Assembly (NCBI GenBank): GCA_964435495.1
Contig: CAYSZK010000001.1
Span: forward strand, 699-64,698
DNA from: an uncultured Verrucomicrobiales bacterium
GTDB taxonomy: Bacteria > Verrucomicrobiota > Verrucomicrobiia > JADLBR01 > JAIBCM01
Direction: 5' to 3'
DNA: 64,000 bases
Under the pieces are notes generated by a model. That model was not told the origin of the DNA. It saw nothing but the letters and a program-made list of their open reading frames with translations, and did no database searches. Below are positions 25,784 to 41,758 of this stretch, in pieces. Within the stretch, counting starts at the first letter, position 1, and every line of letters begins with the position of its first letter. A program made the position numbers and the translations under genes.

Positions 25784-25870
25784 CCATCGGTCCAGACCGT
25801 CGTAGCTGATCTGGGTCGTGTTGGTGCCTCGGGTGATCTGGGTAAGCCGGTTCTTCGCGTCCCACTCATC

Positions 25871-26260: not shown

Positions 26261-27289
26261 TCAAACCTCCATATGGTATGTCTTTGTATTTGACAGTTTC
26301 TCCGGTGGGTTGACCGCCTTTGATAATCGGCAACTCATCATCGGGATCAAATGTCTTGCTGGGAGGCAGGCCCTGCCTGGCGGGCTTGCCGGACACGGTT
26401 CCCGGTCTCCAAGCGACTCATGAAACAAGGGTCCAAGAAAACCAAGCACCGCCGCCGCGGCCGCCAGTTTGGTCCGCAAGTCTGGCGGCCTTGGCGTCGG
26501 ACTTTCCGGGGTCGGCGCGTCCGCGTTGTCGGGTTCGACAAGGAGCAGCGTCGCCACAACCGCCGCGATCACCAGCGGATTGTCCCCTTTCGGGTCAGTG
26601 TAGTTCACCGGGTTATTGGCAAGGGCGCCGTAGATGTTTATCCCTCCCCGCTCGCCAATGGCGTCCCGCCGGAGCCACCTTCCCAGAACCGCGCTGTAGG
26701 GCCTGCCGAGTTTCGGAAACTGCAGTTCTGACAGGCCATGCGCATACATCCCCTGAAACAAGAATTCCGCGTCCCGATCCCCCGCCGTCTTCGTAACACG
26801 CCCCCAGGGATCGTAGCTGTAGCTCGCACGAACTGCCCCATTCGTGTCCACGAGTTCCCGCACTGAGCCCAGATGATCCCGCGTGTAGAACAGTTTCTCC
26901 CCGCCTCCGGTCTCCACCCCCTGCGGAAAGAACCGCTTCACGACCGCGCCGCTCTGGTCCCGTTCCTCACACAACTCCAGCCCGCACCAGACAAACCGCT
27001 TGACCGAGTTCGTTGTGGCTCCGGCCTTCTCCACAATCTGGACCCAGCGGTCCAGACCATCATAGCTGATCTGGGTCGTGTTGGTGCCACGGGTGATCTG
27101 GGTGAGCCGGTTCTTCGCGTCCCAGGAAAGGATGCGGTCATAGACCGCATCTATAGTCAGGTTGCCGTCGGCGTCGTACGTGAGGCTTTGCGAGGGGCTG
27201 TTGGTACCGATCACGATCCTGGTCCCCCCTAGGGCCGGCGTTCGTCGCCAAGCGCACCAGCGGCTCCGCTTATACTTGGCGTAAAGCAT
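26261..27289 (-). CDS. orphan rhs C-terminal cassette 2; the toxin tip is probably in the overlapping frame 26175..26396 (apparent frameshift)
   Basis: Homology to the Rhs core runs from about 27200 (IVIGTNS…) through DPKGDNPLV…HESLGD. The in-frame tail is junk-like. The -1 frame instead gives a plausible Pro/Asp-rich tip (…PSKTFDPDDELP…GGYIEGSGDD…). Confidence 0.65.
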   Translation of the reverse strand: MLYAKYKRSRWCAWRRTPALGGTRIVIGTNSPSQSLTYDADGNLTIDAVYDRILSWDAKNRLTQITRGTNTTQISYDGLDRWVQIVEKAGATTNSVKRFVWCGLELCEERDQSGAVVKRFFPQGVETGGGEKLFYTRDHLGSVRELVDTNGAVRASYSYDPWGRVTKTAGDRDAEFLFQGMYAHGLSELQFPKLGRPYSAVLGRWLRRDAIGERGGINIYGALANNPVNYTDPKGDNPLVIAAVVATLLLVEPDNADAPTPESPTPRPPDLRTKLAAAAAVLGFLGPLFHESLGDREPCPASPPGRACLPARHLIPMMSCRLSKAVNPPEKLSNTKTYHMEV

Positions 27290-27480
27290 ATCGTCAACTT
27301 TTTAGATCCAGCAGAAAGAGTTCCCATTTCTTCGCTTAAGTGCCAATGCCCGGATGGTCCCTCCTTGCCAATAATGCGTTCACAAATCTCGGCCAGAAAC
27401 CTCAATCCTGCTTCGTTAGCCACAATATCAACCTCGCTGGATTCCTCATCTAACGAGACATTAATCTCTATATTGCTCAT
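27229..27480 (-). CDS. putative Rhs immunity protein
   Basis: It is 83 aa, has an ATGA overlap with the orphan-1 stop and sits in a low-GC island. Confidence 0.5.
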   Translation of the reverse strand: MSNIEINVSLDEESSEVDIVANEAGLRFLAEICERIIGKEGPSGHWHLSEEMGTLSAGSKKLTICFTPSISGAAGALGDERRP

Positions 27481-29075
27481 TTCGGATGCCAATTGACCCC
27501 GTCTGGAGACCACTCCTGTTGACTCCCATCACGCAAATGCCCGCGATCCCAATGCGGCTGACCACCTCGTTTATCGTGAGGGCTCTTATCCCAGTGATAA
27601 TGCCAATCATCATCTCTCTGGTCCATTTTATTGTTTGGATCAAAGCTACTGCCTCCACCTGAATCTGATGGACAGATGTCATTTGAATCCCGAAATGACT
27701 CATGAAACAAGGGTCCAAGAGAACCAAGCACCGCTGCTGCGGCAGCGAGTTTTGTCCGCAAGTCCGGCGGCCTTGGCGTCGGACTGTCCGGGGTCGGAGC
27801 ATCCGCGTTGTCGGGTTCGACAAGGAGCAGCGTCGCCACAACCGCCGCGATCACCAGCGGATTGTCCCCTTTCGGGTCAGTGTAGTTCACCGGGTTATTG
27901 GCAAGGGCGCCGTAGATGTTTATCCCTCCCCGCTCGCCAATGGCGTCCCGCCGGAGCCACCTTCCCAGAACCGCGCTGTAGGGCCTGCCGAGTTTCGGAA
28001 ACTGCAGTTCTGACAGGCCATGCGCATACATCCCCTGAAACAAGAATTCCGCGTCCCTATCCCCTGACGTCTTCGTCACCCGGCCCCAGGGATCGTAGCT
28101 GTAGCTGGCTCGGACTGCGCCACTGTTGTCCACAAGTTCCCGCACCGAGCCAAGATGATCCCGCGTGTAAAACAGCTTCTCGCCGCCGACGCCCTCGGCC
28201 CCCTGGGGAAAGAAGCGCTTCACCACCGCGCCGCTCTGGTCCCGTTCCTCGCACAGATCCAGCCCGCACCAGACGAACCGCTTGACCGAGTTCGTTGTGG
28301 TTCCGGCTTTCTCTAGGATCTGCACCCAGCGGTCCAACCCATCGTAGCTGATCTGGGTCGTGTTGGTGCCGCGCGCGATCTGGGTGAGCCGGTTCTTGGC
28401 GTCCCAGGAGAGGATGCGGTCACAGACCGCATCTACAGTCAGGTTCCCATCCGCGTCATAGGTGAGGGTTTGCGAGGCGCTGTTGGTCCCGATAACGATC
28501 TTGTAGTGGTTCGTCGCGGTGTTGGTGTTGCCGTCGGTGGCGGTGATCGTGAGCAGGTTCTCACCGGGCACCAGGTTGTTGAGCAGCGCGGAAAAACTGC
28601 TTCCTTCCGTCTGTCGCGCCTTGTTGGTCACCGCCCCACCGCCCAAGCGGTAGCGCACTGTGGCCGGTTCATTGACCGTGCCCGACATCCATGTGGCCGT
28701 GCCCGCGGCCACGTTGGTCACCTGGTTGAGGCCGTTGTGCTTCGCAGCGCGCAGCGTTGTGCCCGCTTTCTCCCAGAGCCGGTTGTCCGCCTTGTCGTAG
28801 CCGTAGCCGTAATCGGTCTCCGGCGTCCAGTTGCCCCCGCCGCTGTCCCGCCACACGGGCGCGGCGACGAGCTGGTTCACCTCGTCATACACCGCCCGCA
28901 TTTCCCGCGCCGGGTCCACCCCCCGAATCTGCCCCCATTGCGTGATTTGGTCCAGCGCATCGTACTCGCAGATGAAGGTGCTCAAGTGCGTTGCGCCCAC
29001 GCAGTTGGTGATGCCCCGGAGCCCACGGTCCCCCATGGCGTCCCAGTAACCGAAGGCCGCGCTTTGGCCGCACAA
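27477..29075 (-). CDS. orphan rhs C-terminal cassette 1 (YD repeats, Rhs core end, unique His/Trp/Asp-rich tip)
   Basis: The 532 aa are nearly identical to the main Rhs over ~460 aa. They diverge after the HESFRD motif into a lower-GC tip (…DDDWHYHWDKSPHDKRGG…). Confidence 0.75.
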   Translation of the reverse strand: MCGQSAAFGYWDAMGDRGLRGITNCVGATHLSTFICEYDALDQITQWGQIRGVDPAREMRAVYDEVNQLVAAPVWRDSGGGNWTPETDYGYGYDKADNRLWEKAGTTLRAAKHNGLNQVTNVAAGTATWMSGTVNEPATVRYRLGGGAVTNKARQTEGSSFSALLNNLVPGENLLTITATDGNTNTATNHYKIVIGTNSASQTLTYDADGNLTVDAVCDRILSWDAKNRLTQIARGTNTTQISYDGLDRWVQILEKAGTTTNSVKRFVWCGLDLCEERDQSGAVVKRFFPQGAEGVGGEKLFYTRDHLGSVRELVDNSGAVRASYSYDPWGRVTKTSGDRDAEFLFQGMYAHGLSELQFPKLGRPYSAVLGRWLRRDAIGERGGINIYGALANNPVNYTDPKGDNPLVIAAVVATLLLVEPDNADAPTPDSPTPRPPDLRTKLAAAAAVLGSLGPLFHESFRDSNDICPSDSGGGSSFDPNNKMDQRDDDWHYHWDKSPHDKRGGQPHWDRGHLRDGSQQEWSPDGVNWHPK

Positions 29076-29113
29076 CGCCCTCTGGTAAGCTCATATGAAT
29101 GTCATGACCGGCT

Positions 29114-29467
29114 CTAAGCCACATAAATGCGCCCGTCCAAGTGAACTTGAAACGATTCAAAGTCCCTCGAACTATTGAAAACATCTAGTGAGTAACTATT
29201 CTCAAACATCAATATCATTCCACCTTCCTCGGTGCGCGTCGCGTGCTCACACGAAAGCCCAACTAGCTGACAAATCGCCGACGCATGTATTGTGTAGTCG
29301 CTGAATTCCGATCGGAGTGTGATGCCATGCTTAAGCAGGCATGCCCCCTCAATGGACACCCTGCTGTCTTCAAAATTCAAAATGCATTGGTGTTCACTAA
29401 TGCAGACTTGAAGCACCTTCTTGCCAATAAGGGGACTTAGATCGATCTCAACAGGCAATCCATTCAT
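29114..29467 (-). CDS. putative cognate immunity protein of the full-length Rhs
   Basis: A ~117-aa ORF lies in an AT-rich island 4 nt downstream of the rhs stop. Confidence 0.5.
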   Translation of the reverse strand: MNGLPVEIDLSPLIGKKVLQVCISEHQCILNFEDSRVSIEGACLLKHGITLRSEFSDYTIHASAICQLVGLSCEHATRTEEGGMILMFENSYSLDVFNSSRDFESFQVHLDGRIYVA

Positions 29468-29471
29468 AAGG

Positions 29472-32400
29472 CTACCTAGGGGGAAGGGGAACATGCGTCT
29501 GGGCCTGAAACTCAGGCCTGCTCACGTTGGAAGGAGGCTTTCCAGTAGCGGGATTTACTGGCTGGCCATTCTGATTGTATTGCCTCCAATATCCGTTTGG
29601 ATACTGCTCAGTTGGCGACATTTCTCGAATGGTATGTCCAGGTGGAAGCTCGTCTGGCGTGGGAGGTTCTTGTGGAGAATTAGTCGGCTCCTTGAAATAT
29701 GGACTAGGCTTTGGAGATGCGGGGTTTACGGGACACGGCTCCCCGTCTCCAAAAGACTCATGAAACAATGGTCCAAGAAAACCAAGCACAGCCGCCGCGG
29801 CCGCCAGTTTTGTCCGCAAGTCCGGCGGCCTTGGCGTCGGACTGTCCGGGGTCGGAGCATCCGCGTTGTCGGGTTCAACAAGGAGCAGCGTCGCCACAAC
29901 CGCGGCAACAACCAGCGGGTTGTCCCCTTTCGGGTCAATGTAGTTCACCGGGTTGTCGGCAAGGGCTCCGTAGAGGTTGATGCCGCCCCGCTCGCCAATG
30001 GCGTCCCGCCGCAGCCACCTGCCGAGCAAGGGGCTGTAGGGCCTGCCGAGCTTCGGAAGTTGCAGCTCTGACGAGCCATGCTGATACATGCCCTGAAACA
30101 GGAAATCCGAATCCCGATCCCCTGCCGTCTTCGTAACACGCCCCCAGGGATCGTAGCTGTAGCTCGCACGAACTGCCCCATTCGTGTCCACGAGTTCCCG
30201 CACTGAGCCAAGATGATCTCGCGTGTAAAACAGCTTCTCGCCGCCGACGCCCTCGGCCCCCTGCGGAAAGAACCGTTTCACGACCGCGCCATTTCCATCC
30301 CGCTCCTCGCACAGTTCCAGCCCGCACCAGACAAACCGCTTCACCGCGTTGGTCACGGTCCCGGCCTTCTCCACAATCTGGACCCAGCGGTCCAGGCCGT
30401 CGTAGCTAATCTGGGTTGTGTTCGTGCCTCGCGTGATCTGCGTGAGCCGGTTCTTGGCGTCCCAGGAGAGGATGCGGTCATAGACCGCATCTACAGTCAT
30501 GTTCCCATCGGCGTCATAGGTGAAGGTTTGCGAAGCGCTGTTAGTGCCGATCACGATCGTGTAGCGGTTTGTTGCCGTGTTGGTATTTCCATCCTTGGCT
30601 GTGATCGTCAACGTGTTGCTGCCCACGACCAAATTGGTCAGCAACGCCGAAAAACTGGTTCCTTCCGTCTGTTGCGCTTGATTGGTCACCGCTCCTGTAC
30701 CGAGCCGGTATCGCACCGTCGCCGGTTCGTTCACCGTGCCGGACATCCATGTGGCCGTGCCCGCGGCCACGTTGGTCACCTGGTTGAGGCCGTTGTGCTT
30801 CGCAGCGCGCAGCGTTGTGCCCGCTTTTTCCCAGAGCCGGTTGTCCGCCTTGTCGTAGCCATAGCCGTAATCGGTCTCCGGCGCCCAGTTCCCCCCGCCG
30901 CTGTCCCGCCACACGGGCGCGGCGACGAGACGGTTCACCTCGTCAAAGACCGCCCGCATTTCCCGCGCCGGGTTCACCCCACGAATCTGCCCCCATTGCG
31001 TGATTTGGTCCAGCGCATCGTACTCGTAGGTGAAGGTGCTCAGGTGCGTGGTGCCCACGCTGTTGGTGATGCCCCGCAGCCGCCGATCCCCCATGACATC
31101 CCAGTAACCGAAGGCCGTGGTCTGGCCGTTGGGATAGGCGACGCCCGCCAGCAGCGGCGACACCGGGTTTTCGTAGGTGTAGGCGAAGTCGCCAAGGGCA
31201 TTGGCCGCGTTTGTGGCGCGCCCTTGGCTGTCAAACGCCCAAGCGGCCACCACGCCGTTGATGGCGCGGTTGGTCATGCGCCCCAGTCCGTCATAGCCGT
31301 AGGAGACAAGATCATTGGCCCATGGCCCGTCTTCGGCCACAAGCTGGCCGGCGTTATCGAAAGTGTAGGCGGTGGCGCCGATGCCGTCGGCCATGTTAGT
31401 GCGCCAGTTGCGCCGGTCATAGCCGAAACTCACCGGGGCCAGGCCTGTGCCGGTGATGTTGGTGAGGTTCCGAGCGGCGTCGTAACGGAATTCGTTGGTC
31501 TGGCCCCGGCTGTTGACCGCCGCCGCCAGCAACCCGCGCGGGTCATAGGCGTAGGCGATCCGGTTGCCGTCGCTCCACTCCCGGTTGGTGACGCGGTTGA
31601 GTGCGTCGTAGGCAAAGCGCGTGGCGTTGCCGTTGCCATCGCGCAGAACGGTGAGATTGTCGGCGGCGTCATACTGCATCTGAATCCAGCTTCCGTCGGG
31701 GCGGCCCTCGGCCACCATCCGTTTGTTGCCGTCGTAGGCGAACACCGTCTTGCGCCCAAGCCGGTCGGTCACCGAGGCCGGCACGCAGCATTCCCACTCG
31801 TACTCGTCGAAGGTCCCGTCAGGGCGGGTGGCGCGAATGAGCCGGTTGAGATTGTCGTAATCAAAAGACCGCGTTCTTCCCGCGGCGTCGGTGGAAGCCT
31901 GGACCCGTCCCACTGCGTCATAGGCCGCCGTGGCGACGGCCAGGCCCTGGTGGGTGACATTGGTTACGCGGAAGAGGTGGTCGCGTTGGAGGGCGGTGAC
32001 TTCGCCCAGCGCGTTGGTGACCGCCGCAGGCAGGCCGTTGGGCGCGTAGGCAACGCGGGTGGCGCGGTTGAGCGCGTCGGTGATCAAGACGGGCTGGCGC
32101 GCAGCGTTGTACTCGATCCGGGCGGCGCTGTTGCCCGCGCCGTCGATGATGTTGGTCACGTCCAGGCCGTTGGCGGCGTAGAACCAGCGGTTGGTGTTGT
32201 TGCGGGCATCGACGCGTTCGATGGGCATACCCTGGTCGTTGTAGGCCATCCGGACCATTACGTTGGCGGGGTCAATGATGCGGCGGGGATGGCCGTCGAG
32301 GTCGAAGTCCATGAACTGCCAGCGGGTGCCGTCGGCGCGCTTGATTTCCGACAAGAGCGCTTTGCCTTCGACGACCGAGTAGCGCAGTTCGGTCTTGGGC

Positions 32401-34721
32401 GCCTGTTTGGCAGGCAGCGGGGATTCCATCTGCCGGCCATCGCGAATCCAACTGAACCGGCTGTACCCATTGTAATAATACTCCATCCGGTTGTTCTCCG
32501 GGGTTGTCACGGTGATGCGGTAGTTCTCCCACATGGCGGCGCCGGTGGCGGGGTAGTAGTTGGCGGCGCGCACGCCGTCGGTGGGTTCGGTGAGAAAACC
32601 GGTGGCGCCCATCGGGGTGGTGACGCGGTCGAGGAAAAGATTCCCGTTATTGGTGGTGTAGCCATAGGAGTAGGCGACGCCGCCCATGTCGGTTTGGTTG
32701 GTGAGGTTGCCGGAGGCGCTGTAAAGGAACGTGGCCTGGCGTCCAAAGGGATCGGCAATCGCCTGGATTTTTCCCTGGGCGTTATACGACACCGTGAAAT
32801 CGCGGTTGAGGGCGTCGGTGACTTTGAGAATCTGGCCCGCGGCGTCGTGGGTGACGCGCACGGTGTTGGTGTGGGGGTCGCGGATTTCCAGCAGCAGCGG
32901 CGTGGCGCCGCCGCCGCCCATGGCCGCCGGGATGCCGTAGGCGTAGATCATGCCCTCGGGAGTCTGGACTTGATAGGCGCTGGCGGCGGTCTTGCGCAGC
33001 GTCCACGCCCCGTGTTCGATGGGCGGGAGATAGCCGCCGACGCCGTCGGGGGTGTAAACGTCGCGGCGCCCGTCGGGCATGATGACGGTGACCTTGCCGT
33101 CCGGCCCAACCAGGGCGTAGGACGCGTAGTTCAGCGTCCATTTGTTGCCGACGGGCCGGGCTTGGTTGAGGGCGTCCTGGCTGTTGTAGGTGAGGTCGAA
33201 GGAAACCGCGGGGCCGAGCCCGGAGTTGTGCCACAGAGGCGTGTCCAACACGCAAAGGTTGAGATTCGCCGGATTGATGTCCCAAACGGGGAGGCCGGAA
33301 CCGGCGGGCAACCCGCCGCCGCCAGACTCGTCACGTTCGCCCTGGCATCGGCGTTTGTCGGAGCCCAGATCGTCCTCAGGGCGGGGAATGCCACAGCAGC
33401 CGCCGAGGACCTCGGTTTCGGAAGGTGTCGCGGCGGGAAACGCCCGCGCGGCGCCGGGATCGAAGACCACTGCCAAGCCGCTCCATTGGGAATCAAACTG
33501 CTCGAGCGTGAGGGTGACGGTTTGCTTGAGGCGGGGGTCGTAGATCGTGAGGAGAGCCGGGGCGGCGCCCGATTTTTCCAGACCGCTGACGACGACGAAG
33601 TGGAGGTCGCGGTAGTGGGCGATGAAAGGGCGGGGGAGACTGGCGATGCCGCCGGCGTCGGCCTGGACGGCGGCGGTCTCAAGGCCGTGACTTTCGGCAA
33701 ACCGCTGGAGTTGGCCGATGGTAAAACCCTCGTCGCCGGGGGCAGGGAGGCGGCGGACCTCGCGCGCCTCGCGGATGCGCCCGCGCAATTCAAGCACACG
33801 GGCGACGGCTTCGGCGCCGCAATCGCGCAGCTCGGCGAGGTGGCCTTGGAAATGGTTCAACTGGCGAATCCAGTTCTGGGCGTAGGTGCGGCGTTCCCAC
33901 TCCGTCTCCACGGCCAGCATATCGGCAAAAGCGGCGCGTGAATTGGCTATTTCGCCCCGTTCCATCAGGAGGACCGCGCGGCGGAGCCTGGCTTTCTGGC
34001 GCATGGCAAAAGCCGAGTCCTGGGCCGTCTCCGGAATGGCGGAAAGGATGGCGTTGAAGTGGCCCTCGGCTTCGTCCCAGCGCCCCGTGAATTGCGCCTC
34101 GCAACCCAGGTGCAGCCGCGCCTCACCGGCCCACGGACTGTCCGGGAACTCGCGCAAGTGCGCATGGAAGACCGGAACGGCCTCCGCATACCGGTGCGCA
34201 TTCCACAGATTCATCGCGCGGGCGAAGTGAAGATTCACCCGCTCCATCCGCGCGCGCTGTCCGGCATCCTTCAGCCGTAGCGGCTCGGCGGGCGCGGTGG
34301 GCGTCAACGGGCTGCCCAATTGTCCGGCCATTCGGAGTTCGCGTTCGGTGGGCACGCGGTCGAGGCGCAAATCGAGCAGGCTGATTGCGCCTTCCACGCC
34401 GCCATAGAGGCTGGCGCGCTGGCCGCGGCGTTCAGGCGGGTCGCGGCGTTCGAGGTCGCGGATGCGTTCTAGGGTGAGAGGCGGCTCGATCCTGGCGGTT
34501 GGCGCCTGCGGGGCGGGCTTCGAGCAAGCGGCCAGGAGCACGAACGCCATCCAGTGGAGATGCGGTCTGTGACAGCGTCGGACGCATTCCCGGTTCTGGG
34601 ATGCGTGGCTGGCATGGTTCGGGCGGTTTGTGGCGGATCGTCGGACGGCATGGCACACTTCCATGGAGAACGACCGGATGCGGTCACAAGCCGAATCGAC
34701 AGAATAGGGAGTCGGGATCAT
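29472..34721 (-). CDS. rhs: Rhs-family polymorphic toxin (TPR region, C39-peptidase-like domain, YD/RHS repeats, RHS core, variable C-terminal tip)
   Basis: It has many YD repeats and an Rhs core end (YTRDHLGSV…YSYDPWGRV…[34 protein letters not shown]). A papain-like Cys…His region ([12 protein letters not shown]…[13 protein letters not shown]) lies in the N-terminus. The ATG at 34721 overlaps the upstream gene's stop (ATGA). Confidence 0.9.
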
Positions 34722-37700
34722 GGCAGGGACTCCGCGTTGGCGGGGGTTTGAAGCTGGATCACAGGGGCCGACACATCACCGGGCACGAAACCGGGCGGTG
34801 CAGAACGGGCAGGGTCGAGAGGGAATGCGTCGAGCGCGTCGTTCACGCCGTCACCGTCTGAATCCGTGCGGAATGGGCTTGTTCCTTTGGCGGCCTCCTG
34901 GCTCAGGCTCAAGCCGTCGCCGTCCGGGTCGCCGCTGGCGGGATGCAGGCCCGCGGCCCACGCGGCGCCATCGAGGAGCCCGTCTCCGTTGGTGTCGGGA
35001 TTCTGAAAATCGCTGGGGGGCGAGAGTGTAAGCTCGGCGAAGTCGGAGAGGCCATCGCCATCGGTATCGCCGCCTGAATAGACAGTGACGGAGACGGGCG
35101 TGGACACGGTGGAGACACCGCGGTCGTCGGTGGCGACGGCCTTCAGGATGGCCGCGCCGAGCGGCGCGTTGGTCCATTGAAGGGTGTAGGGTGACGAGAT
35201 ATCCTCGCCGATCTTATTCGTGCCGGAAAAGAACTCGACCTTGGCGACGTAACCGTCGGGGTCTGAAGCGGTGGCGGCCAGCCAGAGCGTTCCGGTCGCA
35301 TCGGTGGCGGCGGCGCCGGCGGCAGGAGAGGTGATGGCCACCGTGGGCGGATAACTGAAGACGTTGAACCCGGTGATGCGCGTTGGGGTTAAACGGTTGT
35401 CGCTGTCGCCCAGGCCGAGGCGTCCGCTTCCCCCGGAGCCCCACGCCCACACAAAACCCGCCCCGTCGATGGCGAGGCTGTGATGGGCGCCCGCGGCGAT
35501 GGCGATGGCGTTGCTGAGCCCCGGCGCGGCGGCCTGGCGCGGTGTTTCCACATCGCCGCCAGTCGTGCCGTCGCCCACCGCCCCATACTCCCGGCGTCCC
35601 CACGCCCAGACCGTGCCGTCGCTTTTCAAGGCGAGCATGTGATCATTGCCCGCGGCGATGGCGGTAGCGTTGGAGATGCCGGCGACAACTGTGGGATTGC
35701 CATCAAATCCGTTGGTGATTCTGCCGAGCTGCCTGTCGCTGTTCTCGCCCCATGTCAGCACCCGTCCATCCGAACGCAGCGCCGCGGCAAACTGGTAACC
35801 AGCGGCGATTTCGATCATTGTGCCGCTCCCCGACCATGAAGTCAGGGCGTCATATATGGCGGTCGTGTCGTTCTTGACCTGGCGCATGCTGTTGTCGCCG
35901 GTGGCGCGCGGGTTGGGCGTGGTGACGGTTTCGGCGATGATATGGCTGTTGCGGCGTCCGGCGGCCACGCGAAGCGTTCCAACCGCCGAGAATGTGATTA
36001 AGCGCGGCTGATTTGTCCATGTGGACGCTCCGGAGTCCCCTTTCCCCAACTGGCCCCGTTCGTTGCCGCCCCATGTGTACAGCCTTCCGTTGGTTGTGAC
36101 ACACATGGAATGGTCCTCCCCGGCCGAGACCGCGGCGGCGTTGGGATGATGTTGACGGTGACCGGGCTCTGCTTGTCCTCGTCGTCCCCGTTTCCCAAAC
36201 GGCCTTCAGCGCCGGCGCCCCAGGCCCGCAGCCGCCCGTCGTGGCGCACCGCCAGGCAGTGGAGGGAACCCGCCGCCACCGACCGGACCAGGGAAATCCC
36301 CGAAACCTGCGCGGGACGGTTCGTAGAGCCCGCGTCCGAACCGTTCCCCATCTGGCCGGAGGAGTCTGAACCCCAGGTCCACACCGTTCCATCGTACATC
36401 AGCGCGATGGAATGCTCGTCGCCGCCGTCGATGCCGACGGCTCCGGTCTTGTCGTCGTCGGAAATGGTGTTGGTTGCCGTGCCGGGAGAACCGATGTTGT
36501 AGCCGGAACTGGTGGAGATCGCCACGGCGACGGTTTCATTGGTTTCAACCACGGTGTCATCGAGTACGGAGACCTGAAGATTCGTGAAACTTGCTCCGGC
36601 CGGGATCACCACGGGCGAGCTGATCGCGCGATAGTCGCCGCCGTTGCTGGCGGAGCCGCCGATGGAAAAGTTGACCGCCAACGGCCCGAACGTGTTGCCG
36701 GTGCGGGCAAAGGTGAACACTCCGGAATTGAATCCAGGCTCCGACGCCGATGGATCGGAGGCGGCCACCGTCACCGTGGGTTTGTTGCCGCTGGACTGCG
36801 CGAAAGCCTCAAAAATCACCGCCTGTCCGACCGCCTGGGTGCTCATCGCCAGGTCCACGGCCTGGGCGTAGATCGTTTGCAGCGCCCCGGTGGGGCACAT
36901 CTTGAGAAACACGGAAGCCTCGCCGTTGGCGGCCGTGCGGACCGTTCTGGAGGCCAGTTGCGAGCCGCTGCCCTTGTTCGTGGCGAACAACCCGCCAACG
37001 GGCGAGATCGAGAACGTAACCGGCGCGTTGGTGAGAACATTGCCCACGGCGTCGCGCACCAGCACCACGAGTGGATTGGCCGCGAAAGCGCCGGTGTTCG
37101 TGGTTTGGCGGTCTCCGCTGGCCAGCGACAGCAACGGGGCCTGGCCATTGAAAAAGTCGTTCGGCAGCGTGCCCGCTTGGAACTCCGCCAGGTTTGAGGC
37201 GCCGTCGCCATCGTAATCGCCGGCGGCCGGCTGGTTCGTGCCGCCAAGCCATTCGTATTCCCATGCGTCGTCCATGCCGTCGGCATCGGCATCGCCGCCC
37301 ACGATCGTCACGGAGACCGGAGTGGTGTTGGTGGTCGCGCCGCCGTTGTCGGTGGCGCGGGCGGTGAGGACATGGGCGCCGAAGCCGGCATTGGTCCACT
37401 CCACCGCGTACGGGGCGAGGCCGTCCTCGCCCAGCTTGTTGGTCCCCGCAAAAAACTCGACCTTTGCAACCGTCCCATCCGTGTCGGCGGCGGACGCGCG
37501 CAGCCAGACGCTGGCGGAATTTAGGACCACCGCGCCATCCATCGGGGCGTTCCAGGCCACCGATGGCGGGATGTTGCCGTCAATGAGCCCATGGCCCGCC
37601 ACGGCGGAAAAGGATGCCGCCTGTTCGGAAATGGGATCATCCCCAGCTCCAAACAACCCCGCAAGCGCCGTTTCGGGCAGAGCCACGTTCATCACGCCGC

Positions 37701-38223
37701 GCGGCGACCAGTTTGTGCCGTCGGTGGAGGTGAAAGCCGCCACCGCCTTGCCGCCGCGGTCCAGGCGCAGCCAAAGGGGCGGGTTGGCCAGGGTCCAGTT
37801 GGTCAATTGCCAATCCGCGCCATCGGCAGTGCGCCACGCCATGGACCACGCGGCGATTTGGGAGGGGAGCGCCGCGGACACCAGGAAAAGGGAAGCGTAG
37901 GCGGCATCGGGCGTGTTCGTGGCGCGGATCATGAGGCCGGCGTTGGCCAGCCGGCCAGGCGAAGCGTTGGAAACCTGGACCAAAGCCGAAATGCTGCCCG
38001 TGGTTCCCATGGGCGCGTGGCGGAAGAGAATCGCGTCGGCGCCGGGACCCAGTTCCGTGTTTCTGGCGGCGATCGCAGCCTCGTTGGAAGAAACGGTGAA
38101 CGTTCCCGACTCGCCCTGCAAAGCGGGAACGGGGGTGATAACCGAATTGGTCCAGGTCTGCGCGTGCGCCACGGCGGCGGCGAGCGCGGCGGCGGGCAGG
38201 AGCGGGCGCAAGAACGGCTTCAT
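34718..38223 (-). CDS. secreted multidomain protein: signal peptide, Ig-like/thrombospondin-type-3 Ca-binding segments, Calx-beta, RCC1 beta-propeller repeats; apparent frameshift at ~36143-36146
   Basis: [21 protein letters not shown] is a signal peptide. A Calx-beta-like block is present (FTFARTGNT…[14 protein letters not shown]). RCC1 repeats (…HS/HCLAL…DGxVWxWGxxxxGQLG) continue seamlessly from the 1121-aa ORF frame into the 462-aa ORF frame at an atcatccc|aacgcc C-run. Confidence 0.7.
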
Positions 38224-40684
38224 TGCGCGAGCACCCGGTAAAGGTTGGCGGAGTCCGCGGCCAAGCCGTTGGTTTGGACAACCGTCTCGGGGGCGCCGGC
38301 GCCGGTGACGGCTGCGATGGGCCGGTAGGTCTTGCCGTCGGTGGAGTGTTCGACGACGTAATCCACGCCAACTTGGGCGTCGAAGGTGATGGCAATGCCC
38401 TGGGGCGCACCCTCCAACTGGACAACAGGCGGCGCGGCGGGCGCGGCGTTGGTGAGCACGTTGCACCACGCGGCCATGGACCAGCGCGAGAGCCAATTGC
38501 CGTCGCGGAAGGCGCCGGCGTGGGCCGCGGGGGCGAACCAGCCGTTCCACGGGGCGGCCAGCGCGATGGAGCGCGCGCCCGCGCCGGCGGCGAGGAGCGG
38601 ATTCAGGGCGCGTTCGTTGAGCCGCGCGATGCGGCGCAGGCCGGGGTTTTCCGCAAATACGTTGCCGTTGCTGCCCGCGCCGAGGATCGGGGCCACTACC
38701 GCGTCGTTGGCGCCGCCGTTGACGCTGGCGGCGTCGCACGCGCCCGTGGCGCCGATGCTCCACCAGTGGACGCCCTGGAAGGAAAGATCGGGGCCCGGCG
38801 CGGCGGCGCTGTCGGCGGCCAGGTTGAATTCGCCCCCGGAACTGCGCGTGGCCGCCAGGCGCGCCTCCTGCAGCGCGTTGGTCCCGATCCAGAGGCCGGG
38901 ACCGGCGGTGTCCATGACGATGCTGTTGCGCAGCCGCCCGCCGGAGTTGTGGCGGAAGCGCAGGCCGTTGCCCGGCGCCGTGTTGCCCGAGTCCGTGCCG
39001 CGCCCGATGAGCGTGGCGTTGTAGATGAGCGGGACCGAATACGGACCCGCGGGATTCATGTCGTCGGGTTCGGGGCCCTGCCCGTCGAGGAGGGCGTCGC
39101 CGGCTTCGGCGACCGGGTCGCGGCCAGTGCCGTCGCTGGCATTGTCCTGGATGGCGAACCATTGCTGGCCCAAGCCATGCCAGCCTTCGTCCCAAGCGAA
39201 GGCGTCCTGTCCGGCGAACCACGCCGCCGCCCGCGCCAGCCGCGCCGAGCCGCCGCGCAGCTCGAAGCCGTTGCCCGCGGCGTTCCAGACCTCCACCAGT
39301 TCCACCACCGTGTTGCTGCCCACTCCCGCCAGCGCCAATCCCGCCAGCCGGTGCGCGCCCCACGCGCGCGCACCCGCGTAGCGGATCGACACGAACCGCA
39401 TCACCCCGCTATCGCTGCCTTCGTCAGTGCCCCCGTAGAGGCCCTTTGCGGAGCCCTCCAAGCCGCGGAGATAGTCGCAGCCGGTTCCGGTGTCGATTGC
39501 GCCGGGGTTATCGATGAATTGCGCCCCTGTGGCGTTGCCCTGGGCGACGGGCGCCTCGCCCAGCAGAACCACTCCGCCCCAGAGGCCGGAGTGCTCGAAA
39601 GCATTGGGCTGGCCGGGATCGGCGGTCTGGTATTGGCGGCGGTTGGCGGGGTCGGTCAAATCCCGGCTGCCCGCTCCGGCAAGCGGGTTTTCCCATGGCG
39701 GAATGGTGTTATCCCCGCACGGAAGCAGCGGGTCGTCGATGGAGGTAAAGATGATGGGGGATTGGGCGGTGCCGTTGGCCACCAGCTTGGCGCCGCGGCA
39801 GACGATTAGCGCTCCGGCGTCGGAGGGCGACTGCCCGGAAATGCCGGTGGTGGTGGGGCCTTCGGCGCGGACGATGGTGCCGGGTTCAACAATAAGAACC
39901 GCTCCGGCGCGCACGTAAATGGGGCGGTCGAGCACATAGATATTGTTGGCGGTGAAGCGCGTGTCATTGGTGATGTCGGCAACGATCTTGAGGTAACTGC
40001 GGCTGTTCCACTGCTGGGGGCGCCCGCGTTGTACGCCGCCTCGTCAAACTCGGGCGCTCCCTCCATGCCCATGAGCGCCATCATGCCGCCCTCCGGCGGC
40101 GGGGGATCGGCGAGAAGCTCCGCGCGATGGGCGTCGAAGTAGCCATGGACCCAGTCCAGGAAAGCCGCGTCCTCCGGACGGAGGGGCTTGTCATGTTTGG
40201 CAAGCACGGGAAATTCACCCGGCCGCGGCCCGCGCCACTGGGAGGCCTCCTGCCCCTTGCCTGAAGCGGCGGCCAATTCGTTCTTGAGCGCCATTTCGGA
40301 AGGCAAAGCCTCCCATTTCCGGTAGTTCTCCCAATCCCCGCAAAACCGCAAACACCACGCGCCATAACCGGCCTTGGGGTCTTCCCAGTCACGATGGTTT
40401 CGGATGGCGTCAAAAGGGATTGAGGAGATGACGCGCGCCCAGCCGCTTCCCGTCCATATTTGGATCACGGACAGGCCATTGCCGAAGCACTCCACCCAGA
40501 GCACTTGGCGGACGATCGGCGTCTGAGTCTTGGCGGGTCCGGCTTCAAGAGCGATGGGCTCAGCGGATGCCGTTTCGACGCCGTGGGAGAAGAGGCAGAA
40601 TATGCCGCAAACCGCAAATGCGGCGAACGAAACGCGGGCGGCGACCAGCACCCGCTGGAAAAAGTCCCCAGACCCCAGTCTCAT
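38220..40684 (-). CDS. secreted right-handed beta-helix (pectate-lyase-fold-like) protein; apparent frameshift at ~40016-40021
   Basis: The signal peptide and N-domain are in ORF 39806..40684. The body is in ORF 38220..39935, whose frame is open back to ~40000. The join is at a gcgccccc|agcag C-run. The stop overlaps the downstream start (ATGA). Confidence 0.6.
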
Positions 40685-40756: not shown

Positions 40757-41758
40757 TCACGCGGTTCCCGTTAGGAACCAGGTTGCCATGGGGCCTTTGC
40801 CCTTGATCTCGATTTCGCCCCGGGGCTCGAACGTGAAGGCGCCGCCCAAGCGTTCCTTGACGGCGGCGCTCACATGGATTTTGCCGGGTTCGCCGTGGGA
40901 TTCCAAGCGGCTGGCGGTGTTTACGGTGTCACCCCAGATGTCGTAGATGAATTTGCGCTTGCCGATGACGCCGGCGACGACGGCGCCGGCGTGAAGGCCG
41001 ATGCGCAACTGGAGCGCTTGGCGCCCGCTGTCGGCGACCGCGGCCCGCATCTCCAGGGCGAGCCGGGCCATGGCGGCAAGGTTGTCCGGACGCGGATCGG
41101 GCAGGCCCCCGGCCACCATGTAGGCGTCGCCGATCGTCTTGATTTTCTCCAGGCCGTGTTTTTCGACGAGGTTGTCGAAGGCGGAGAACACGCGGTTGAG
41201 CATTTCGACGAGGCTGATGGCGTCGAGCTTCGCGGAGAGCGGCGTGAAATTGACGATGTCGGCGAACAGCACGGAGGCGTCTTCGAAACGTTCCGCGATG
41301 ATTCCGCCGCCGCGCTTGAGGCGGTCGGCGATGGGGGCGGGGAGGACGTTGAGGAGGAGGCGGGTGTTTTCCCGGTTGAGGCGGTCGAGGGCGAGATGGG
41401 TGTTGACGCGGGCTAGCAGCTCGTGGGCGTTGAACGGCTTGGCGACGTAATCCACGGCGCCCAGTTCGAAGCCTTTGACGATGTCGGCGGTCTCGGTCCT
41501 GGCGGTGAGGAAGATGACGGGGATGTCCCGCCAGCCGGGATGTTCCTTGAGGCGGCGGCAGGTTTCGAAGCCGTCCATTTCCGGCATCATCACGTCGAGA
41601 AGGATCAGGTCGGGGACCTGCCGGGCGAGGGCGTCGAGGGCGATCCTGCCGTTGGTGGCCACGCTGATCTGGTAGCCTTGCTCCTTGAGAATGGCGGTGA
41701 CCGCCTGGATGTTGGCCGGGGTGTCCTCGACCAGCAGGATGCGTCCTTCTTTGTTCAT
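40757..41758 (-). CDS. response regulator receiver fused to class III adenylate/guanylate cyclase domain
   Basis: ILLVEDT…DLILLDVMMPEMDG is a REC domain. FADIVNFT…GDAYMVAGG…YDIWGDTVNTASR is a CYC domain. The start overlaps the HK stop (ATGA). Confidence 0.85.
   Translation of the reverse strand: MNKEGRILLVEDTPANIQAVTAILKEQGYQISVATNGRIALDALARQVPDLILLDVMMPEMDGFETCRRLKEHPGWRDIPVIFLTARTETADIVKGFELGAVDYVAKPFNAHELLARVNTHLALDRLNRENTRLLLNVLPAPIADRLKRGGGIIAERFEDASVLFADIVNFTPLSAKLDAISLVEMLNRVFSAFDNLVEKHGLEKIKTIGDAYMVAGGLPDPRPDNLAAMARLALEMRAAVADSGRQALQLRIGLHAGAVVAGVIGKRKFIYDIWGDTVNTASRLESHGEPGKIHVSAAVKERLGGAFTFEPRGEIEIKGKGPMATWFLTGTA

What the first reader, a model, noticed from the sequence alone, without database searches (positions are those of the whole stretch)
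33400..34550. Unusual Rhs N-terminus: TPR repeats plus a peptidase-C39-like (papain-fold) domain and Cys-rich linker ahead of the YD repeats
Residues ~60-280 look like TPR helices. They are followed by [14 protein letters not shown]…(≈95 aa)…[15 protein letters not shown]…LLTIYDP…[15 protein letters not shown]. This reproduces the Cys / His-F-V-V / DP…eF…W-G-a-l layout of bacteriocin-processing C39 peptidases. [13 protein letters not shown]…CQGERD linker comes next. Rhs proteins normally carry PAAR, VgrG-binding or T7SS N-termini. A C39-like domain hints at a different maturation or export logic, or an inactive C39-like docking module.
Basis: inference. Interest (0 to 1): 0.6.

Follow-up and report, generated by a model that had tools for sequence, protein, structure and literature searches.

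The report
Self-releasing C39 protease on Rhs toxin
A large bacterial Rhs toxin carries, ahead of its shell, a helical-repeat domain and an apparently active bacteriocin-type (C39) cysteine protease followed directly by that protease's own "double-glycine" cutting signal, so the toxin probably cuts itself free of its export anchor; the layout recurs in hundreds of uncharacterised proteins.

Summary
The 1749-aa Rhs (window 29472..34721, minus strand) has a probable lipoprotein signal, YbgF/BamD-like TPR helices (aa ~153-290), a Peptidase_C39 domain (Pfam E=4e-16; best structural match the LahT double-glycine protease) and the GGCCG segment.

The family is large: 230 clusters at E<=1e-30 and 33 genome loci. 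Most loci are Verrucomicrobiota, and cultured Aliivibrio also carries it.

- **Catalytic residues:** Cys301 is kept in 180/180 sequences, His374 in 173/173, and Asp395 in 162/173 (9 Asn). An inactive docking module is therefore unlikely.
- **The "Cys-rich linker":** its start is the strongest signal. G(-2) is invariant and position -1 is G/A/S. Family-wide, L-12, S-11, E-8, L/M-7 and I/L/V-4 reproduce the published double-glycine leader consensus, followed by a near-invariant CCG.

Best explanation (inferred, untested): after Sec export, the C39 domain cleaves its own chain at GG|CC. This frees the Rhs cage from its anchor and prodomain.

Caveats are that the canonical oxyanion Gln is not conserved, the window's own leader-like motif is degenerate, and the role of the invariant CC is unknown.

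I also found a conserved upstream partner gene (TSP3-repeat tail) in 21 of 34 loci.

I found no paper describing this layout. I rate it a new variant of known parts.

The parts
29472..34721 (-). Full-length Rhs polymorphic toxin gene (1749 aa from the first ATG; the real start may be a later Met, e.g. Met58 at 34550)
   Evidence: ORF list and translation. RHS_repeat E=1e-59, DUF6531, and Rhs_assc_core at 56 bits against a 32.5 cut-off. Residues 1-57 are not conserved in homologues.
34524..34550 (-). Probable lipoprotein signal peptide end, MAFVLLAAC (lipobox LAAC, Cys66)
   Evidence: Read from the sequence. Almost all family members with an intact N-terminus have a hydrophobic signal, lipobox or membrane-anchor segment there. 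Function is inferred.
34296..34382 (-). Conserved N-terminal motif [29 protein letters not shown] (aa 114-142), function unknown
   Evidence: Nearly invariant in the alignment of close homologues. G133, L139 and P141 are kept in 94-97% of 120 sequences.
33852..34265 (-). TPR-like helical repeat domain (aa ~153-290) containing the invariant SPWxxExxLHxGC patch (W197, E200, H204, C207)
   Evidence: AF2 helices with pLDDT 86-97. Foldseek matches YbgF TPR (TM 0.8 on the target) and BamD. Pfam TPR hits are below their cut-offs. W197 and E200 are 100% and H204 99% conserved in 120 sequences.
33453..33851 (-). Peptidase C39 (papain-fold) domain, aa 291-423; catalytic Cys301 (33819-33821), His374 (33600-33602), Asp395 (33537-33539)
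   Evidence: Pfam PF03412 E=4.3e-16. ComA/LahT alignments. Foldseek top hit 6mpz. Conservation: Cys 180/180, His 173/173, Asp 162/173 plus 9 Asn.
33399..33449 (-). Leader-like segment ending in the double glycine (aa 425-441, [17 protein letters not shown]); proposed recognition helix and P2-P1 of the cleavage site
   Evidence: Family counts: G-2 161/161; position -1 G147/A7/S5/T2; conservation peaks at L-12, S-11, E-8, L/M-7 and I/L/V-4. This matches the published consensus M(R/K)ELX3E(I/L)X2(I/V)XG(G/A). The window copy keeps only V-4, G-2 and G-1.
33297..33398 (-). Cys-Cys start (aa 442-443, 33393-33398) and Gly/Cys-rich linker [12 protein letters not shown]... up to the plug; proposed new N-terminus after cleavage
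   Evidence: C+1 154/158, C+2 150/156, G+3 143/156, P+5 and R+6 common. AF2 confidence is below 50 from aa ~446 onward.
33057..33296 (-). Start of the Rhs cage: DUF6531-type N-terminal plug region (aa 476-555)
   Evidence: Pfam DUF6531 at 24.9 bits against a 24.1 cut-off. The motif G-x-P-x-W-x-x-N..N..D-x-P-x-W is kept in 86-97% of 120 sequences.
29925..30155 (-). Rhs repeat-associated core (C-terminal autoprotease region) ending in ...NYIDPKG
   Evidence: TIGR03696 E=4e-15, aa 1523-1599; coordinates.
29475..29924 (-). C-terminal cargo: two hydrophobic helices shared with two downstream orphan cassettes, then a short variable tail of unknown activity
   Evidence: Translations. No Pfam hit at E<=0.1.
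29114..29494 (-). Probable cognate immunity gene (126 aa), overlapping the Rhs stop
   Evidence: Position directly after the toxin end. DUF6188 at 29.4 bits against a 27.1 cut-off. Role is inferred.
34718..36106 (-). 3' part of the conserved upstream partner gene: RCC1 propeller, Big_7, TSP3 repeats and the conserved tail DAFPLDPxRS...PPxIxLxxP. Its stop overlaps the Rhs ATG (ATGA).
   Evidence: Pfam. Conserved neighbour cluster. Tail alignment. Tail HMM finds it directly upstream of the Rhs gene in 21 of 34 loci. ATGA overlap.
35998..39363 (-). 5' part of the same partner gene in another reading frame (DUF1349/LamG-like, Big_7, Big_1, Calx-beta, first RCC1 blades); interrupted by a frameshift near 36142-36154
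   Evidence: Pfam. The intact L001 partner (1373 aa) aligns to frame -2 up to 36154 and frame -1 from 36142.

Best explanation
This is a Sec-exported Rhs polymorphic toxin made as a pro-protein. The layout is: signal peptide, lipobox or membrane anchor; then a TPR domain; then an active C39 cysteine peptidase; then a built-in double-glycine 'leader' with its cleavage site; then Cys-Cys and a linker; then the Rhs plug, cage and encapsulated toxin.

Proposed mechanism, step by step:
1. The N-terminal signal takes the protein across the inner membrane. It often leaves it tethered, as a lipoprotein in this window. The signal is shown by sequence; its function is inferred.
2. The C39 domain binds the short amphipathic segment that follows it. 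That segment carries hydrophobic residues at -12, -7 and -4 and an acidic residue at -8, as bacteriocin leaders do. The domain then cleaves after G440-G441, in cis or between two precursors. This step is inferred from the motif and the intact triad.
3. Cleavage frees the Rhs cage, which now starts with Cys442-Cys443, from the anchor/TPR-C39 prodomain. This is functionally equivalent to the N-terminal cleavage that T6SS Rhs effectors undergo just before their plug domain.
4. The near-invariant Cys-Cys at P1'-P2' probably adds control. One possibility is redox gating of a thiol protease working in an oxidising compartment; another is a role for the new N-terminal cysteine. This step is speculative.
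5. The TPR domain and, in PVC bacteria, the co-transcribed TSP3-tailed partner protein probably hold or guide the precursor at the envelope. This step is speculative.
6. The C-terminal toxin, the immunity gene and the orphan cassettes work as in other Rhs loci.
For: - **C39 identity and fold.** Pfam E=4.3e-16; ComA/LahT sequence alignments with Cys and His in register; Foldseek top hit 6mpz, the LahT150-leader complex.
- **Triad conservation across about 175 diverse members.** Cys 180/180, His 173/173, Asp 162/173 plus 9 Asn.
- **Cleavage-site signature.** G-2 is 161/161. Position -1 is G147/A7/S5/T2, the Gly-Gly/Ala/Ser specificity stated for C39 peptidases in the StbD preprint discussion.
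- **Leader-like motif.** Ungapped conservation peaks fall at exactly L-12, S-11, E-8, L/M-7 and I/L/V-4. These reproduce the consensus M(R/K)ELX3E(I/L)X2(I/V)XG(G/A) quoted in PMC3140520. The strict motif occurs at this site in 22 of 147 proteins and once elsewhere in 187,842 residues.
- **Diverged members.** They keep the leader-like motif while changing the following residues: GG|CY, GA|CF, GS|S.
- **AF2 model.** It places a helix at -9..-4 and a two-residue beta-bridge at L439-G440 next to the domain, at moderate confidence.
- **Location.** Nearly all members with an intact N-terminus have a signal, lipobox or anchor. There is no second C39 domain and no PCAT-type transporter ORF in the window, and the only gene conserved next to the Rhs gene across loci is the upstream partner, so no conserved transporter.
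- **Precedents.** The C39 domain of StbD-CT cuts its own linker in cis after Gly-Gly, blocked by Cys-to-Ala and GG-to-SS substitutions. T6SS Rhs proteins are N-terminally cleaved just before the plug.
Against: - No experiment exists; cleavage is inferred.
- The canonical oxyanion-hole Gln (Gln11 in ComA, by my recollection of the ComA literature) is not conserved. The aligned position is N/H/Q/K/A and is His294 in the window. The Pfam match also starts at profile position 10.
- AF2 draws the segment around Cys301 as one long helix continuous with the last TPR helix. That would be unusual for a papain-type nucleophile.
- The window's own segment ([12 protein letters not shown]) keeps only V-4, G-2 and G-1 of the consensus. 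Only about 15% of members carry the full strict motif.
- A thiol protease in the oxidising periplasm, next to four conserved cysteines, could be inactive until reduced.
- The invariance of the Cys-Cys is not explained by cleavage alone.
Confidence: 0.62

Rival explanations
1. Redox-latched version. The C39 domain is held inactive in the oxidising periplasm or outside the cell, for example by a disulfide involving the catalytic Cys301 and the adjacent Cys442/Cys443 or Cys207. It fires only on reduction, for example on contact with or entry into a target cell. The prodomain would then travel with the Rhs and cleavage would be a delivery trigger, not a maturation step in the producer.
For: Four conserved cysteines: C207 85%, C301 100%, C442 95%, C443 92%. 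P1' and P2' would sit next to the nucleophile if the GG docks. The location is extracytoplasmic. StbD-CT auto-processing occurs only under reducing conditions.
Against: In StbD the tested disulfide hypothesis (Cys187Ser) did not give constitutive cleavage. Some diverged members have CY, CF or no Cys after the site. Nothing shows that the whole N-terminal part reaches a reducing compartment.
Confidence: 0.15
2. The C39 domain is an active protease that works in trans on other proteins: the upstream partner, an envelope protein, or a target-cell protein. The GGCCG segment would be a structural or disulfide hinge that is not cut.
For: The triad is conserved. C39 domains can be toxins with specific protein substrates, as with StbD-CT on GyrB/ParE and Tox-PL-C39. 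A conserved partner gene sits upstream.
Against: The partner's conserved tail has no GG-type motif, and the partner is absent from the non-PVC loci, which still keep C39 and the GG site. This reading leaves the exact match of positions -12, -11, -8, -7, -4, -2 and -1 to the leader consensus unexplained. The domain is N-terminal and outside the cage, not in the toxin position.
Confidence: 0.12
3. The domain is a non-catalytic C39-like docking or chaperone module, as in HlyB, that only binds a peptide.
For: The canonical oxyanion Gln is missing. C39-like domains are among the structural matches: 3zua and 3b79.
Against: C39-like domains of HlyB type lack the catalytic Cys (my recollection of the literature). 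Here Cys is 180/180, His 173/173 and Asp/Asn 171/173 across phyla, which is hard to explain without catalysis. The best structural match is an active double-glycine protease.
Confidence: 0.05
4. The GG site is cut by a separate enzyme, such as a PCAT-type ABC transporter elsewhere in the genome or another periplasmic protease. The fused C39 would serve another purpose.
For: GG leaders are normally cut by transporter-borne C39 domains.
Against: PCAT C39 domains are cytosolic, whereas this protein has a Sec, lipoprotein or anchor signal. The window has no second C39 domain and no PCAT-type ORF, and no transporter is conserved next to the Rhs gene across loci. A 440-residue folded 'leader' has no precedent that I know of.
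Confidence: 0.04

Closest known systems
C39 peptidase domains of bacteriocin/peptide exporters (PCAT/AMS: ComA, LahT, PCAT1, CvaB)
   Same: Same Pfam family and papain-like fold. Cys, His and Asp are in register. The proposed site has Gly at P2 and Gly/Ala/Ser at P1, preceded by the L-12/E-8/L-7/I-4 leader pattern.
   Different: Those domains are cytosolic, fused to an ABC transporter, and cut separate small peptides during export. Here the domain is extracytoplasmic, fused behind a TPR domain, and the presumed substrate is the same 190-kDa polypeptide. The oxyanion Gln is not conserved, and no transporter is linked.
StbD-CT, the CdiA-like C39 peptidase toxin of Citrobacter rodentium (bioRxiv 10.64898/2026.05.07.723447)
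   Same: A C39 domain inside a polymorphic toxin that cuts its own chain in cis at a Gly-Gly in the neighbouring linker. Cleavage is needed for delivery and sensitive to redox state.
   Different: There the C39 is the C-terminal toxin itself (it cleaves GyrB/ParE) and the GG lies upstream of the domain. Here the C39 is an N-terminal prodomain outside an Rhs cage, the GG lies about 17-19 residues downstream, it is followed by an invariant Cys-Cys, and the toxin is a different C-terminal module.
N-terminal autocleavage of T6SS Rhs effectors (RhsA of P. protegens, TseI, Photorhabdus Rhs1; PMC8765631, PMC8636562)
   Same: Cleavage a short distance upstream of the N-terminal plug of the Rhs cage, separating the delivery-adaptor region from the cage. 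Here the GG site lies 35 residues before the DUF6531 plug.
   Different: In T6SS Rhs the cut is made by residues of the cage or plug (two Glu in TseI) or by an unknown mechanism (RhsA). No dedicated protease domain is involved, and the N-terminus is PAAR/prePAAR or VgrG-binding. Here a recognisable protease with a known recognition motif is fused in, and export is Sec-dependent.
Releasing peptidases and Tox-PL-C39 of polymorphic toxins (Zhang et al. 2012, PMC3482391)
   Same: The general idea of a peptidase domain built into a polymorphic toxin to process it. C39-related domains are recorded in RHS-containing toxins.
   Different: That survey lists Tox-PL-C39 as a toxin domain, in Bacteroidetes, Chloroflexi and Firmicutes. 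For Sec-dependent toxins it lists caspase, HINT, MCF1-SHE, subtilisin and ZU5 as processing proteases, not C39. An N-terminal TPR-C39 prodomain with its own GG site is not described there.

Membership tests
Peptidase family C39 (Pfam PF03412) | Sequence match above the curated threshold | tested here: met
   59.4 bits against a gathering score of 22, E=4.3e-16, aa 298-423, profile positions 10-131 of 133.
Peptidase family C39 (Pfam PF03412) | Papain-like alpha+beta fold superposable on solved C39 domains | tested here: met
   AF2 model with pLDDT 85-90 over the domain. Foldseek top hits are 6mpz (TM 0.71 on the target), 3b79, 3zua and PCAT1.
Peptidase family C39 (Pfam PF03412) | Catalytic Cys, His and Asp/Asn | tested here: met
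   Cys301 and His374 align with the ComA DCG and LHY motifs. Family counts are Cys 180/180, His 173/173, Asp 162 plus Asn 9 of 173. The pairwise alignment around the Asp is ambiguous by two residues because ComA reads DPDP there.
Peptidase family C39 (Pfam PF03412) | Oxyanion-hole Gln a few residues before the catalytic Cys | tested here: not met
   The aligned position is His294 in the window. Across the family it is N51/H26/Q22/K21/A14. The first 9 profile positions are unmatched. Asn or His might substitute; not testable here.
Peptidase family C39 (Pfam PF03412) | Proteolysis after a double-glycine-type motif | not testable with these tools
   Only the candidate site and its conservation can be shown.
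PCAT/AMS peptidase-containing ABC exporters | C39 domain fused to ABC transmembrane and ATPase domains, facing the cytosol | tested here: not met
   There are no ABC domains in the protein, which has an N-terminal signal or lipobox. NCBIfam exporter models match only their first ~130 positions, far below cut-off.
Double-glycine leader (bacteriocin-type signal) | Consensus L-12 ... E-8 (I/L)-7 .. (I/V)-4 . G-2 (G/A)-1 immediately before the cut | tested here: inconclusive
   Met at family level: conservation peaks at exactly these positions, with G-2 at 100%. The strict motif is present in 22 of 147 proteins. The window copy keeps only V-4, G-2 and G-1. Unlike true leaders, the segment is internal rather than at the N-terminus of a small peptide.
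HlyB-type C39-like domain (non-catalytic) | C39 fold without the catalytic Cys | tested here: not met
   Cys is present in 180/180 sequences. The definition of the family rests on my knowledge of the literature.
Rhs / YD-repeat polymorphic toxin | RHS/YD repeats forming the cage, plus the Rhs-associated core | tested here: met
   RHS_repeat E=1e-59 with 10 stretches; YD_repeat_2x E=1e-42; Rhs_assc_core 56 bits against 32.5.
Rhs / YD-repeat polymorphic toxin | Variable C-terminal toxin followed by an immunity gene and orphan toxin/immunity cassettes | tested here: met
   A small ORF lies directly after the toxin end (DUF6188). Four downstream Rhs C-terminal fragments have different tails, in a region of lower G+C. 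Toxicity and immunity were not tested.
Rhs / YD-repeat polymorphic toxin | PAAR, VgrG-binding, LXG/WXG or TcB-type N-terminus (T6SS, T7SS or Tc delivery) | tested here: not met
   No such domain was found by Pfam or NCBIfam at E<=0.1. The N-terminus is signal + TPR + C39.
Tox-PL-C39 toxin domain (Zhang et al. 2012) | C39-related peptidase at the C-terminal toxin position of a polymorphic toxin | tested here: not met
   The domain lies at aa 291-423 of 1749, upstream of the cage.
TPR repeat proteins | Sequence match to TPR profiles / helical-hairpin repeat fold | tested here: inconclusive
   All Pfam TPR hits are below their cut-offs. The fold matches YbgF TPR (TM 0.8 on the target) and BamD, with seven helices at pLDDT 86-97.

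The most novel reading that the evidence does not exclude
A previously unrecognised delivery class of Rhs toxins. The precursor is exported by Sec and tethered to the envelope. It is released by its own C39 protease at an internal double-glycine 'leader'. The invariant N-terminal Cys-Cys created by the cut then serves as a redox switch or as a reactive 1,2-aminothiol handle for covalent attachment, for example acylation. In PVC bacteria the co-transcribed, highly variable TSP3-tailed surface protein (RCC1 propeller, LamG or beta-helix) would act as the receptor-binding or carrier component. That would make a two-gene 'adhesin + self-releasing Rhs' weapon independent of T6SS, T7SS and Tc.
Probability: 0.25. 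Interest if true: 0.8.

Novelty: new variant of a known kind. Interest (0 to 1): 0.62.

Why it matters
How Rhs toxins without T6SS, T7SS or Tc adaptors are matured and delivered is poorly understood. Even for T6SS Rhs proteins, the chemistry of the N-terminal cut is unresolved in some cases.

This family offers an Rhs whose N-terminal processing would be done by a recognisable protease with a known recognition motif. Precise point mutants can therefore be designed at once: C301A, H374A, G440S/G441S, C442S/C443S. Orthologues in cultivable Aliivibrio make genetics feasible.

It would also extend C39 peptidases from cytosolic, transporter-borne leader peptidases to extracytoplasmic, self-processing prodomains of very large proteins. 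It would show that the double-glycine leader logic of bacteriocins has been reused inside a polymorphic toxin.

The conserved partner gene gives a lead to how such toxins reach target cells in Verrucomicrobiota and relatives, where almost nothing is known about interbacterial weapons.

Tried and rejected
- **Inactive docking module.** Rejected because the triad is invariant.
- **Giant leader processed by a PCAT exporter.** Rejected. The window has only one C39 domain and no PCAT-type ORF; the one ABC-ATPase-like ORF (57131..57883) is a 250-aa stand-alone. No transporter is conserved across loci, and the proteins carry Sec-type signals.
- **C39 replaced by another protease in the long (1900-2100 aa) relatives.** Checked because they matched the profile only over the TPR part. 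They still have C39, split by a large insertion between the Cys and His halves, and they keep a leader-like G-G/A site.
- **GG-type site in the partner protein's conserved tail.** None seen.
- **First protein search.** The word-indexed search found only 15 mostly truncated relatives. The exhaustive profile search was needed to see the family's size.
- **Literature.** Seven searches for Rhs combined with terms such as C39, TPR, Aliivibrio and Verrucomicrobia found no description of this architecture. They returned only Tox-PL-C39 as a toxin domain, the StbD preprint, and a remark on C39 domains near the N-terminus of giant Omnitrophota proteins. The library is not complete, so absence is not proof.
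- **Model geometry.** I could not obtain model coordinates, so the distance between Cys301 and the G441 carbonyl was not measured. I did not use the second structure job because pLDDT alone would not settle docking.
- It translated the partner region in a single frame and was uninformative. The frameshift was located by tblastn instead.
Full report
**What is there**

The finding lies in the 5' part of a minus-strand ORF, window 29472..34721, encoding a 1749-aa protein. Pfam and NCBIfam identify it as an Rhs polymorphic toxin. RHS_repeat scores E=1e-59, there is a DUF6531 plug region at aa 505-555, and the Rhs-associated core lies at aa 1523-1599.

The segment aa 298-423 matches Peptidase_C39 (PF03412) with E=4.3e-16 and 59.4 bits against a gathering score of 22. 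phmmer against PDB sequences aligns it with the peptidase domains of ComA and LahT, with the DCG (Cys) and LH[FY] (His) motifs in register.

An AlphaFold2 model of aa 58-470 was built on 16 sequences. Its mean pLDDT is 77, and 85-97 over the folded parts. Its best Foldseek matches in the PDB are:
- the LahT150 double-glycine protease bound to its leader (6mpz, TM 0.71 on the target);
- a papain-like protease toxin/immunity pair (9l5u), then C39 and C39-like domains (3b79, 3zua) and, lower in the list, PCAT1;
- for the N-terminal half, the TPR domains of YbgF/CpoB (TM about 0.8 on the target) and BamD.

The TPR-like helices occupy aa ~153-290. Residues 58-150 hold a probable lipoprotein signal (MAFVLLAAC), a low-confidence stretch and a conserved motif ([24 protein letters not shown]). 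Sequence-profile support for 'TPR' is below threshold, so that label rests on the predicted fold.

**It is a family, not a one-off**

- A word-indexed search found 15 metagenome relatives at 42-50% identity. All share the same N-terminal layout and most are cut by contig ends.
- An exhaustive profile search of 1.84 billion cluster representatives found 230 proteins at E<=1e-30. Most of the top 150 are 1400-2000 aa long.
- A scan of one genome per species returned 33 loci. They are mainly Verrucomicrobiota, including Akkermansiaceae, Luteolibacter and Puniceicoccaceae MAGs. Kiritimatiellales, Thermodesulfobacteriota, a gammaproteobacterial MAG and Abditibacterium also appear.
- In nearly all of these loci the match is the start of a 1500-1800-aa Rhs ORF.
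- One cluster contains proteins of cultured Aliivibrio salmonicida and A. logei. They are named only 'RHS repeat-associated core domain-containing protein' or 'Peptidase C39 domain-containing protein'.

**The protease looks active**

I aligned about 175-180 family members to an HMM of the C39-plus-linker region:

| Residue | Conservation |
|---|---|
| Cys301 | 180/180 |
| His374 | 173/173 |
| Asp395 | Asp in 162 of 173, Asn in 9 |
| W-x-G near the end of the domain | 96-98% |

One canonical feature is missing. The position that aligns with the oxyanion-hole Gln of ComA is variable (N/H/Q/K/A; His294 here), and the Pfam match starts only at profile position 10. The model also draws the stretch around Cys301 as a helix continuous with the last TPR helix. 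Low catalytic efficiency would matter little for a single self-cleavage, but this remains a real caveat.

**The start of the 'Cys-rich linker' looks like a cleavage site**

The most conserved element of the whole N-terminal region, after the catalytic residues, is the segment that starts about 17-19 residues after the last strand of the C39 domain:

| Position | Residue in window | Conservation |
|---|---|---|
| P2 | G440 | Gly 161/161 |
| P1 | G441 | G147 / A7 / S5 / T2 |
| P1' | C442 | Cys 154/158 |
| P2' | C443 | Cys 150/156 |
| P3' | G444 | Gly 143/156 |

Counting positions without gaps back from the glycines in 147 sequences, conservation peaks at -12 (Leu), -11 (Ser/Ala/Thr), -8 (Glu/Asp), -7 (Leu/Met) and -4 (Ile/Leu/Val). 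That is the double-glycine leader consensus of bacteriocin-type precursors, quoted as M(R/K)ELX3E(I/L)X2(I/V)XG(G/A) in PMC3140520. The Gly-Gly/Ala/Ser preference at the cut is the stated specificity of C39 peptidases.

A strict regular expression for the motif hits exactly this site in 22 of 147 proteins and occurs once elsewhere in 187,842 residues. Diverged members with a large insertion in the C39 domain keep the leader-like motif while the residues after it change. Examples are LSSAEMKGITGG|CY, LSPSAMGQMRGA|CF and a GS|S variant. The motif before the cut is therefore the more basic feature.

In the AF2 model the -9..-4 residues form a short helix and L439-G440 form a two-residue beta-bridge, at moderate confidence (pLDDT about 56-73). 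This fits a docked substrate but does not prove one. I had no coordinates to measure the geometry.

The window's own copy ([12 protein letters not shown]|CCG) is a weak version of the leader. It keeps only V-4, G-2 and G-1.

**Where it acts**

Almost every member with an intact N-terminus begins with a hydrophobic signal. This is a cleavable signal peptide, a lipobox, or what looks like an uncleaved membrane anchor. The window protein has LLAAC.

The TPR-C39-Rhs body is therefore outside the cytoplasm, unlike the cytosolic C39 domains of peptide exporters. The window holds no second C39 domain and no PCAT-type transporter ORF. The only gene family conserved next to the Rhs gene across loci is the upstream partner described below, so no transporter is conserved there.

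**Most likely mechanism**

The protein is made as a pro-Rhs. After Sec export, and in this case probably lipidation, the C39 domain recognises the leader-like helix that follows it. It cuts after G441, in cis or between precursors, and so releases the cage from the anchor/TPR-C39 prodomain.

Two precedents make this plausible:
- The C39 toxin domain of the CdiA-like protein StbD cuts its own linker in cis after Gly-Gly. Cleavage is blocked by Cys-to-Ala and GG-to-SS substitutions, happens only under reducing conditions, and is needed for intoxication.
- T6SS Rhs effectors are cleaved just upstream of their plug domain, by cage-borne Glu residues in TseI or by an unknown mechanism in RhsA (also PMC8636562). 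Here the GG lies 35 residues before the plug.

What is shown: domain identity, conservation of the triad, the site motif and its match to an independent consensus, and the export signals. What is inferred: that cleavage happens, where it happens and when.

The near-invariant Cys-Cys after the site is not explained by cleavage alone. Together with the conserved Cys207 in the TPR domain (85%), it suggests redox control, or a function for the new N-terminal cysteine.

**Context in the window**

Downstream of the Rhs stop lie:
- a 126-aa ORF (29114..29494, DUF6188), presumably the immunity gene;
- four Rhs C-terminal fragments with different tails (27477..29075, 26261..27289, 24926..25783, 24146..24613), in a stretch where G+C falls from about 0.67 to 0.57-0.59. 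This is the usual orphan-cassette array.

Upstream lies a gene for a large secreted protein with a DUF1349/LamG-like region, Big_7, Big_1 and Calx-beta domains, an RCC1 propeller and bacterial TSP3 repeats. Its stop overlaps the Rhs ATG (ATGA).

This neighbour is conserved. A protein ending in TSP3 repeats plus the tail DAFPLDPxRS...D.TPPxIxIxxP sits directly upstream of the Rhs gene in 21 of 34 loci. All 21 are Verrucomicrobiota or Kiritimatiellales, while its body varies widely (RCC1, LamG, beta-helix, Ig; 215 to 2231 aa). It is absent from the Thermodesulfobacteriota and gammaproteobacterial loci, which still have C39 and the GG site. It is therefore an accessory of the PVC branch and not needed for the processing logic. 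Whether its tail binds the TPR domain is speculation.

In this window the partner gene is broken by at least one frameshift, near 36142-36154.

**Comparison with what is known**

- It works like a bacteriocin leader peptidase turned on its own chain, and like the StbD-CT self-release.
- By sequence, fold and triad it belongs to peptidase family C39, but it lacks the conserved Gln.
- It is not a PCAT, not a HlyB-type C39-like domain, and not the Tox-PL-C39 toxin domain of Zhang et al. 2012. That domain sits at the C-terminal toxin position. That survey lists caspase, HINT, MCF1-SHE, subtilisin and ZU5, but not C39, as processing proteases of Sec-dependent toxins.
- Seven full-text searches found no description of a TPR-C39 N-terminus on Rhs proteins. 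The nearest remark concerns C39 domains near the N-terminus of giant Omnitrophota proteins, which 'might cleave the giant proteins'. The library is incomplete, so I cannot exclude prior description.

**Verdict**

All parts are of known kinds, so I rate it a new variant of a known kind. The combination is widespread, uncharacterised and directly testable. Interest is 0.62, and confidence in self-cleavage at GG|CC is about 0.6.

Noticed in passing
window 34718..40684 (minus strand); loci L001-L004, L006-L014, L016, L027-L029, L031, L032: A conserved partner gene lies directly upstream of the Rhs gene in 21 of 34 loci, all PVC bacteria. It encodes a secreted protein with a highly variable body (RCC1 propeller, LamG, beta-helix, Ig; 215-2231 aa). 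It always ends in bacterial TSP3 repeats plus the tail DAFPLDPxRS...D.TPPxIxIxxP, which resembles the first strand of an Ig domain. Its stop overlaps or abuts the Rhs start.
   Followed up: partly
window ~36142-36154, and possibly ~39363-39806: The partner gene is split between reading frames. The intact L001 orthologue aligns to frame -2 up to 36154 and to frame -1 from 36142, and a further piece aligns at 40052-40507. This is either a pseudogene or indel errors in the assembly.
   Followed up: partly
window 24146..29494 (minus strand): An array of four orphan Rhs C-terminal fragments with different tails and small ORFs after them, plus the presumed immunity gene (DUF6188) of the main toxin. 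G+C drops to 0.57-0.59 here against about 0.67 around it. The fragment 24926..25783 ends in a tail containing HEKVH (an HExxH motif), possibly a metallopeptidase toxin.
   Followed up: no
window 29475..29924 (aa 1600-1749), and the orphans 27477..29075 and 26261..27289: After the Rhs core (…NYIDPKGD), the main toxin and two orphans share a nearly identical segment with two hydrophobic helices: NPLV(V/I)[20 protein letters not shown]...AAAAVLG(F/S)LGPLFHES. Only the last ~60-70 residues differ. This may be a common membrane-entry or pre-toxin module. There is no Pfam match.
   Followed up: no
window 34077..34133 (aa 197-215): The TPR domain carries an almost invariant patch SPWxxExxLHxGC (W197 and E200 100%, H204 99%, C207 85% of 120 sequences). 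It is more conserved than expected for a plain scaffold and may be a binding site or a partner of the Cys-Cys.
   Followed up: no
window 34296..34382 (aa 114-142): A conserved motif [24 protein letters not shown] lies between the signal and the TPR domain, modelled with high confidence in part (pLDDT block means of 78-93 over roughly aa 118-147). Function unknown.
   Followed up: no
loci L007, L008, L009, L010, L014 (N-termini of the partner proteins): Several partner proteins share an N-terminal motif straight after the signal peptide: AP(Q/A)WW..RGV...(N)DYA.INQGQLKN. I could not place it in a known family.
   Followed up: no
proteins P0072, P0164-P0167 (Aliivibrio salmonicida, A. logei): The TPR-C39-GG-Rhs family occurs in cultivable Aliivibrio species under generic names, which gives a genetically tractable model.
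   Followed up: partly
proteins P0056, P0089, P0099, P0109, P0118 and locus L023: A sub-branch (1900-2100 aa; Abditibacterium and relatives) has a large, low-complexity insertion of roughly 60-130 residues between the Cys half and the His half of the C39 domain. It still keeps the triad and a leader-like G-G/A site.
   Followed up: partly
window 40757..46278 (minus strand): Upstream of the partner gene lie a response-regulator/nucleotide-cyclase fusion (342 aa) and a 1507-aa hybrid sensor kinase (Cache-like, HAMP, GAF, PAS, HisKA, two receiver domains, Hpt). Similar signalling genes occur near a few related loci, but the link may be chance.
   Followed up: no
window 17089..21089 (minus strand): A gene pair that I recognised by eye as the DUF1592-family (cytochrome-c motif CxxCH) plus DUF1552 type common in Planctomycetes and Verrucomicrobia. 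It fits a PVC origin for the window. I did not run a profile search on it.
   Followed up: no
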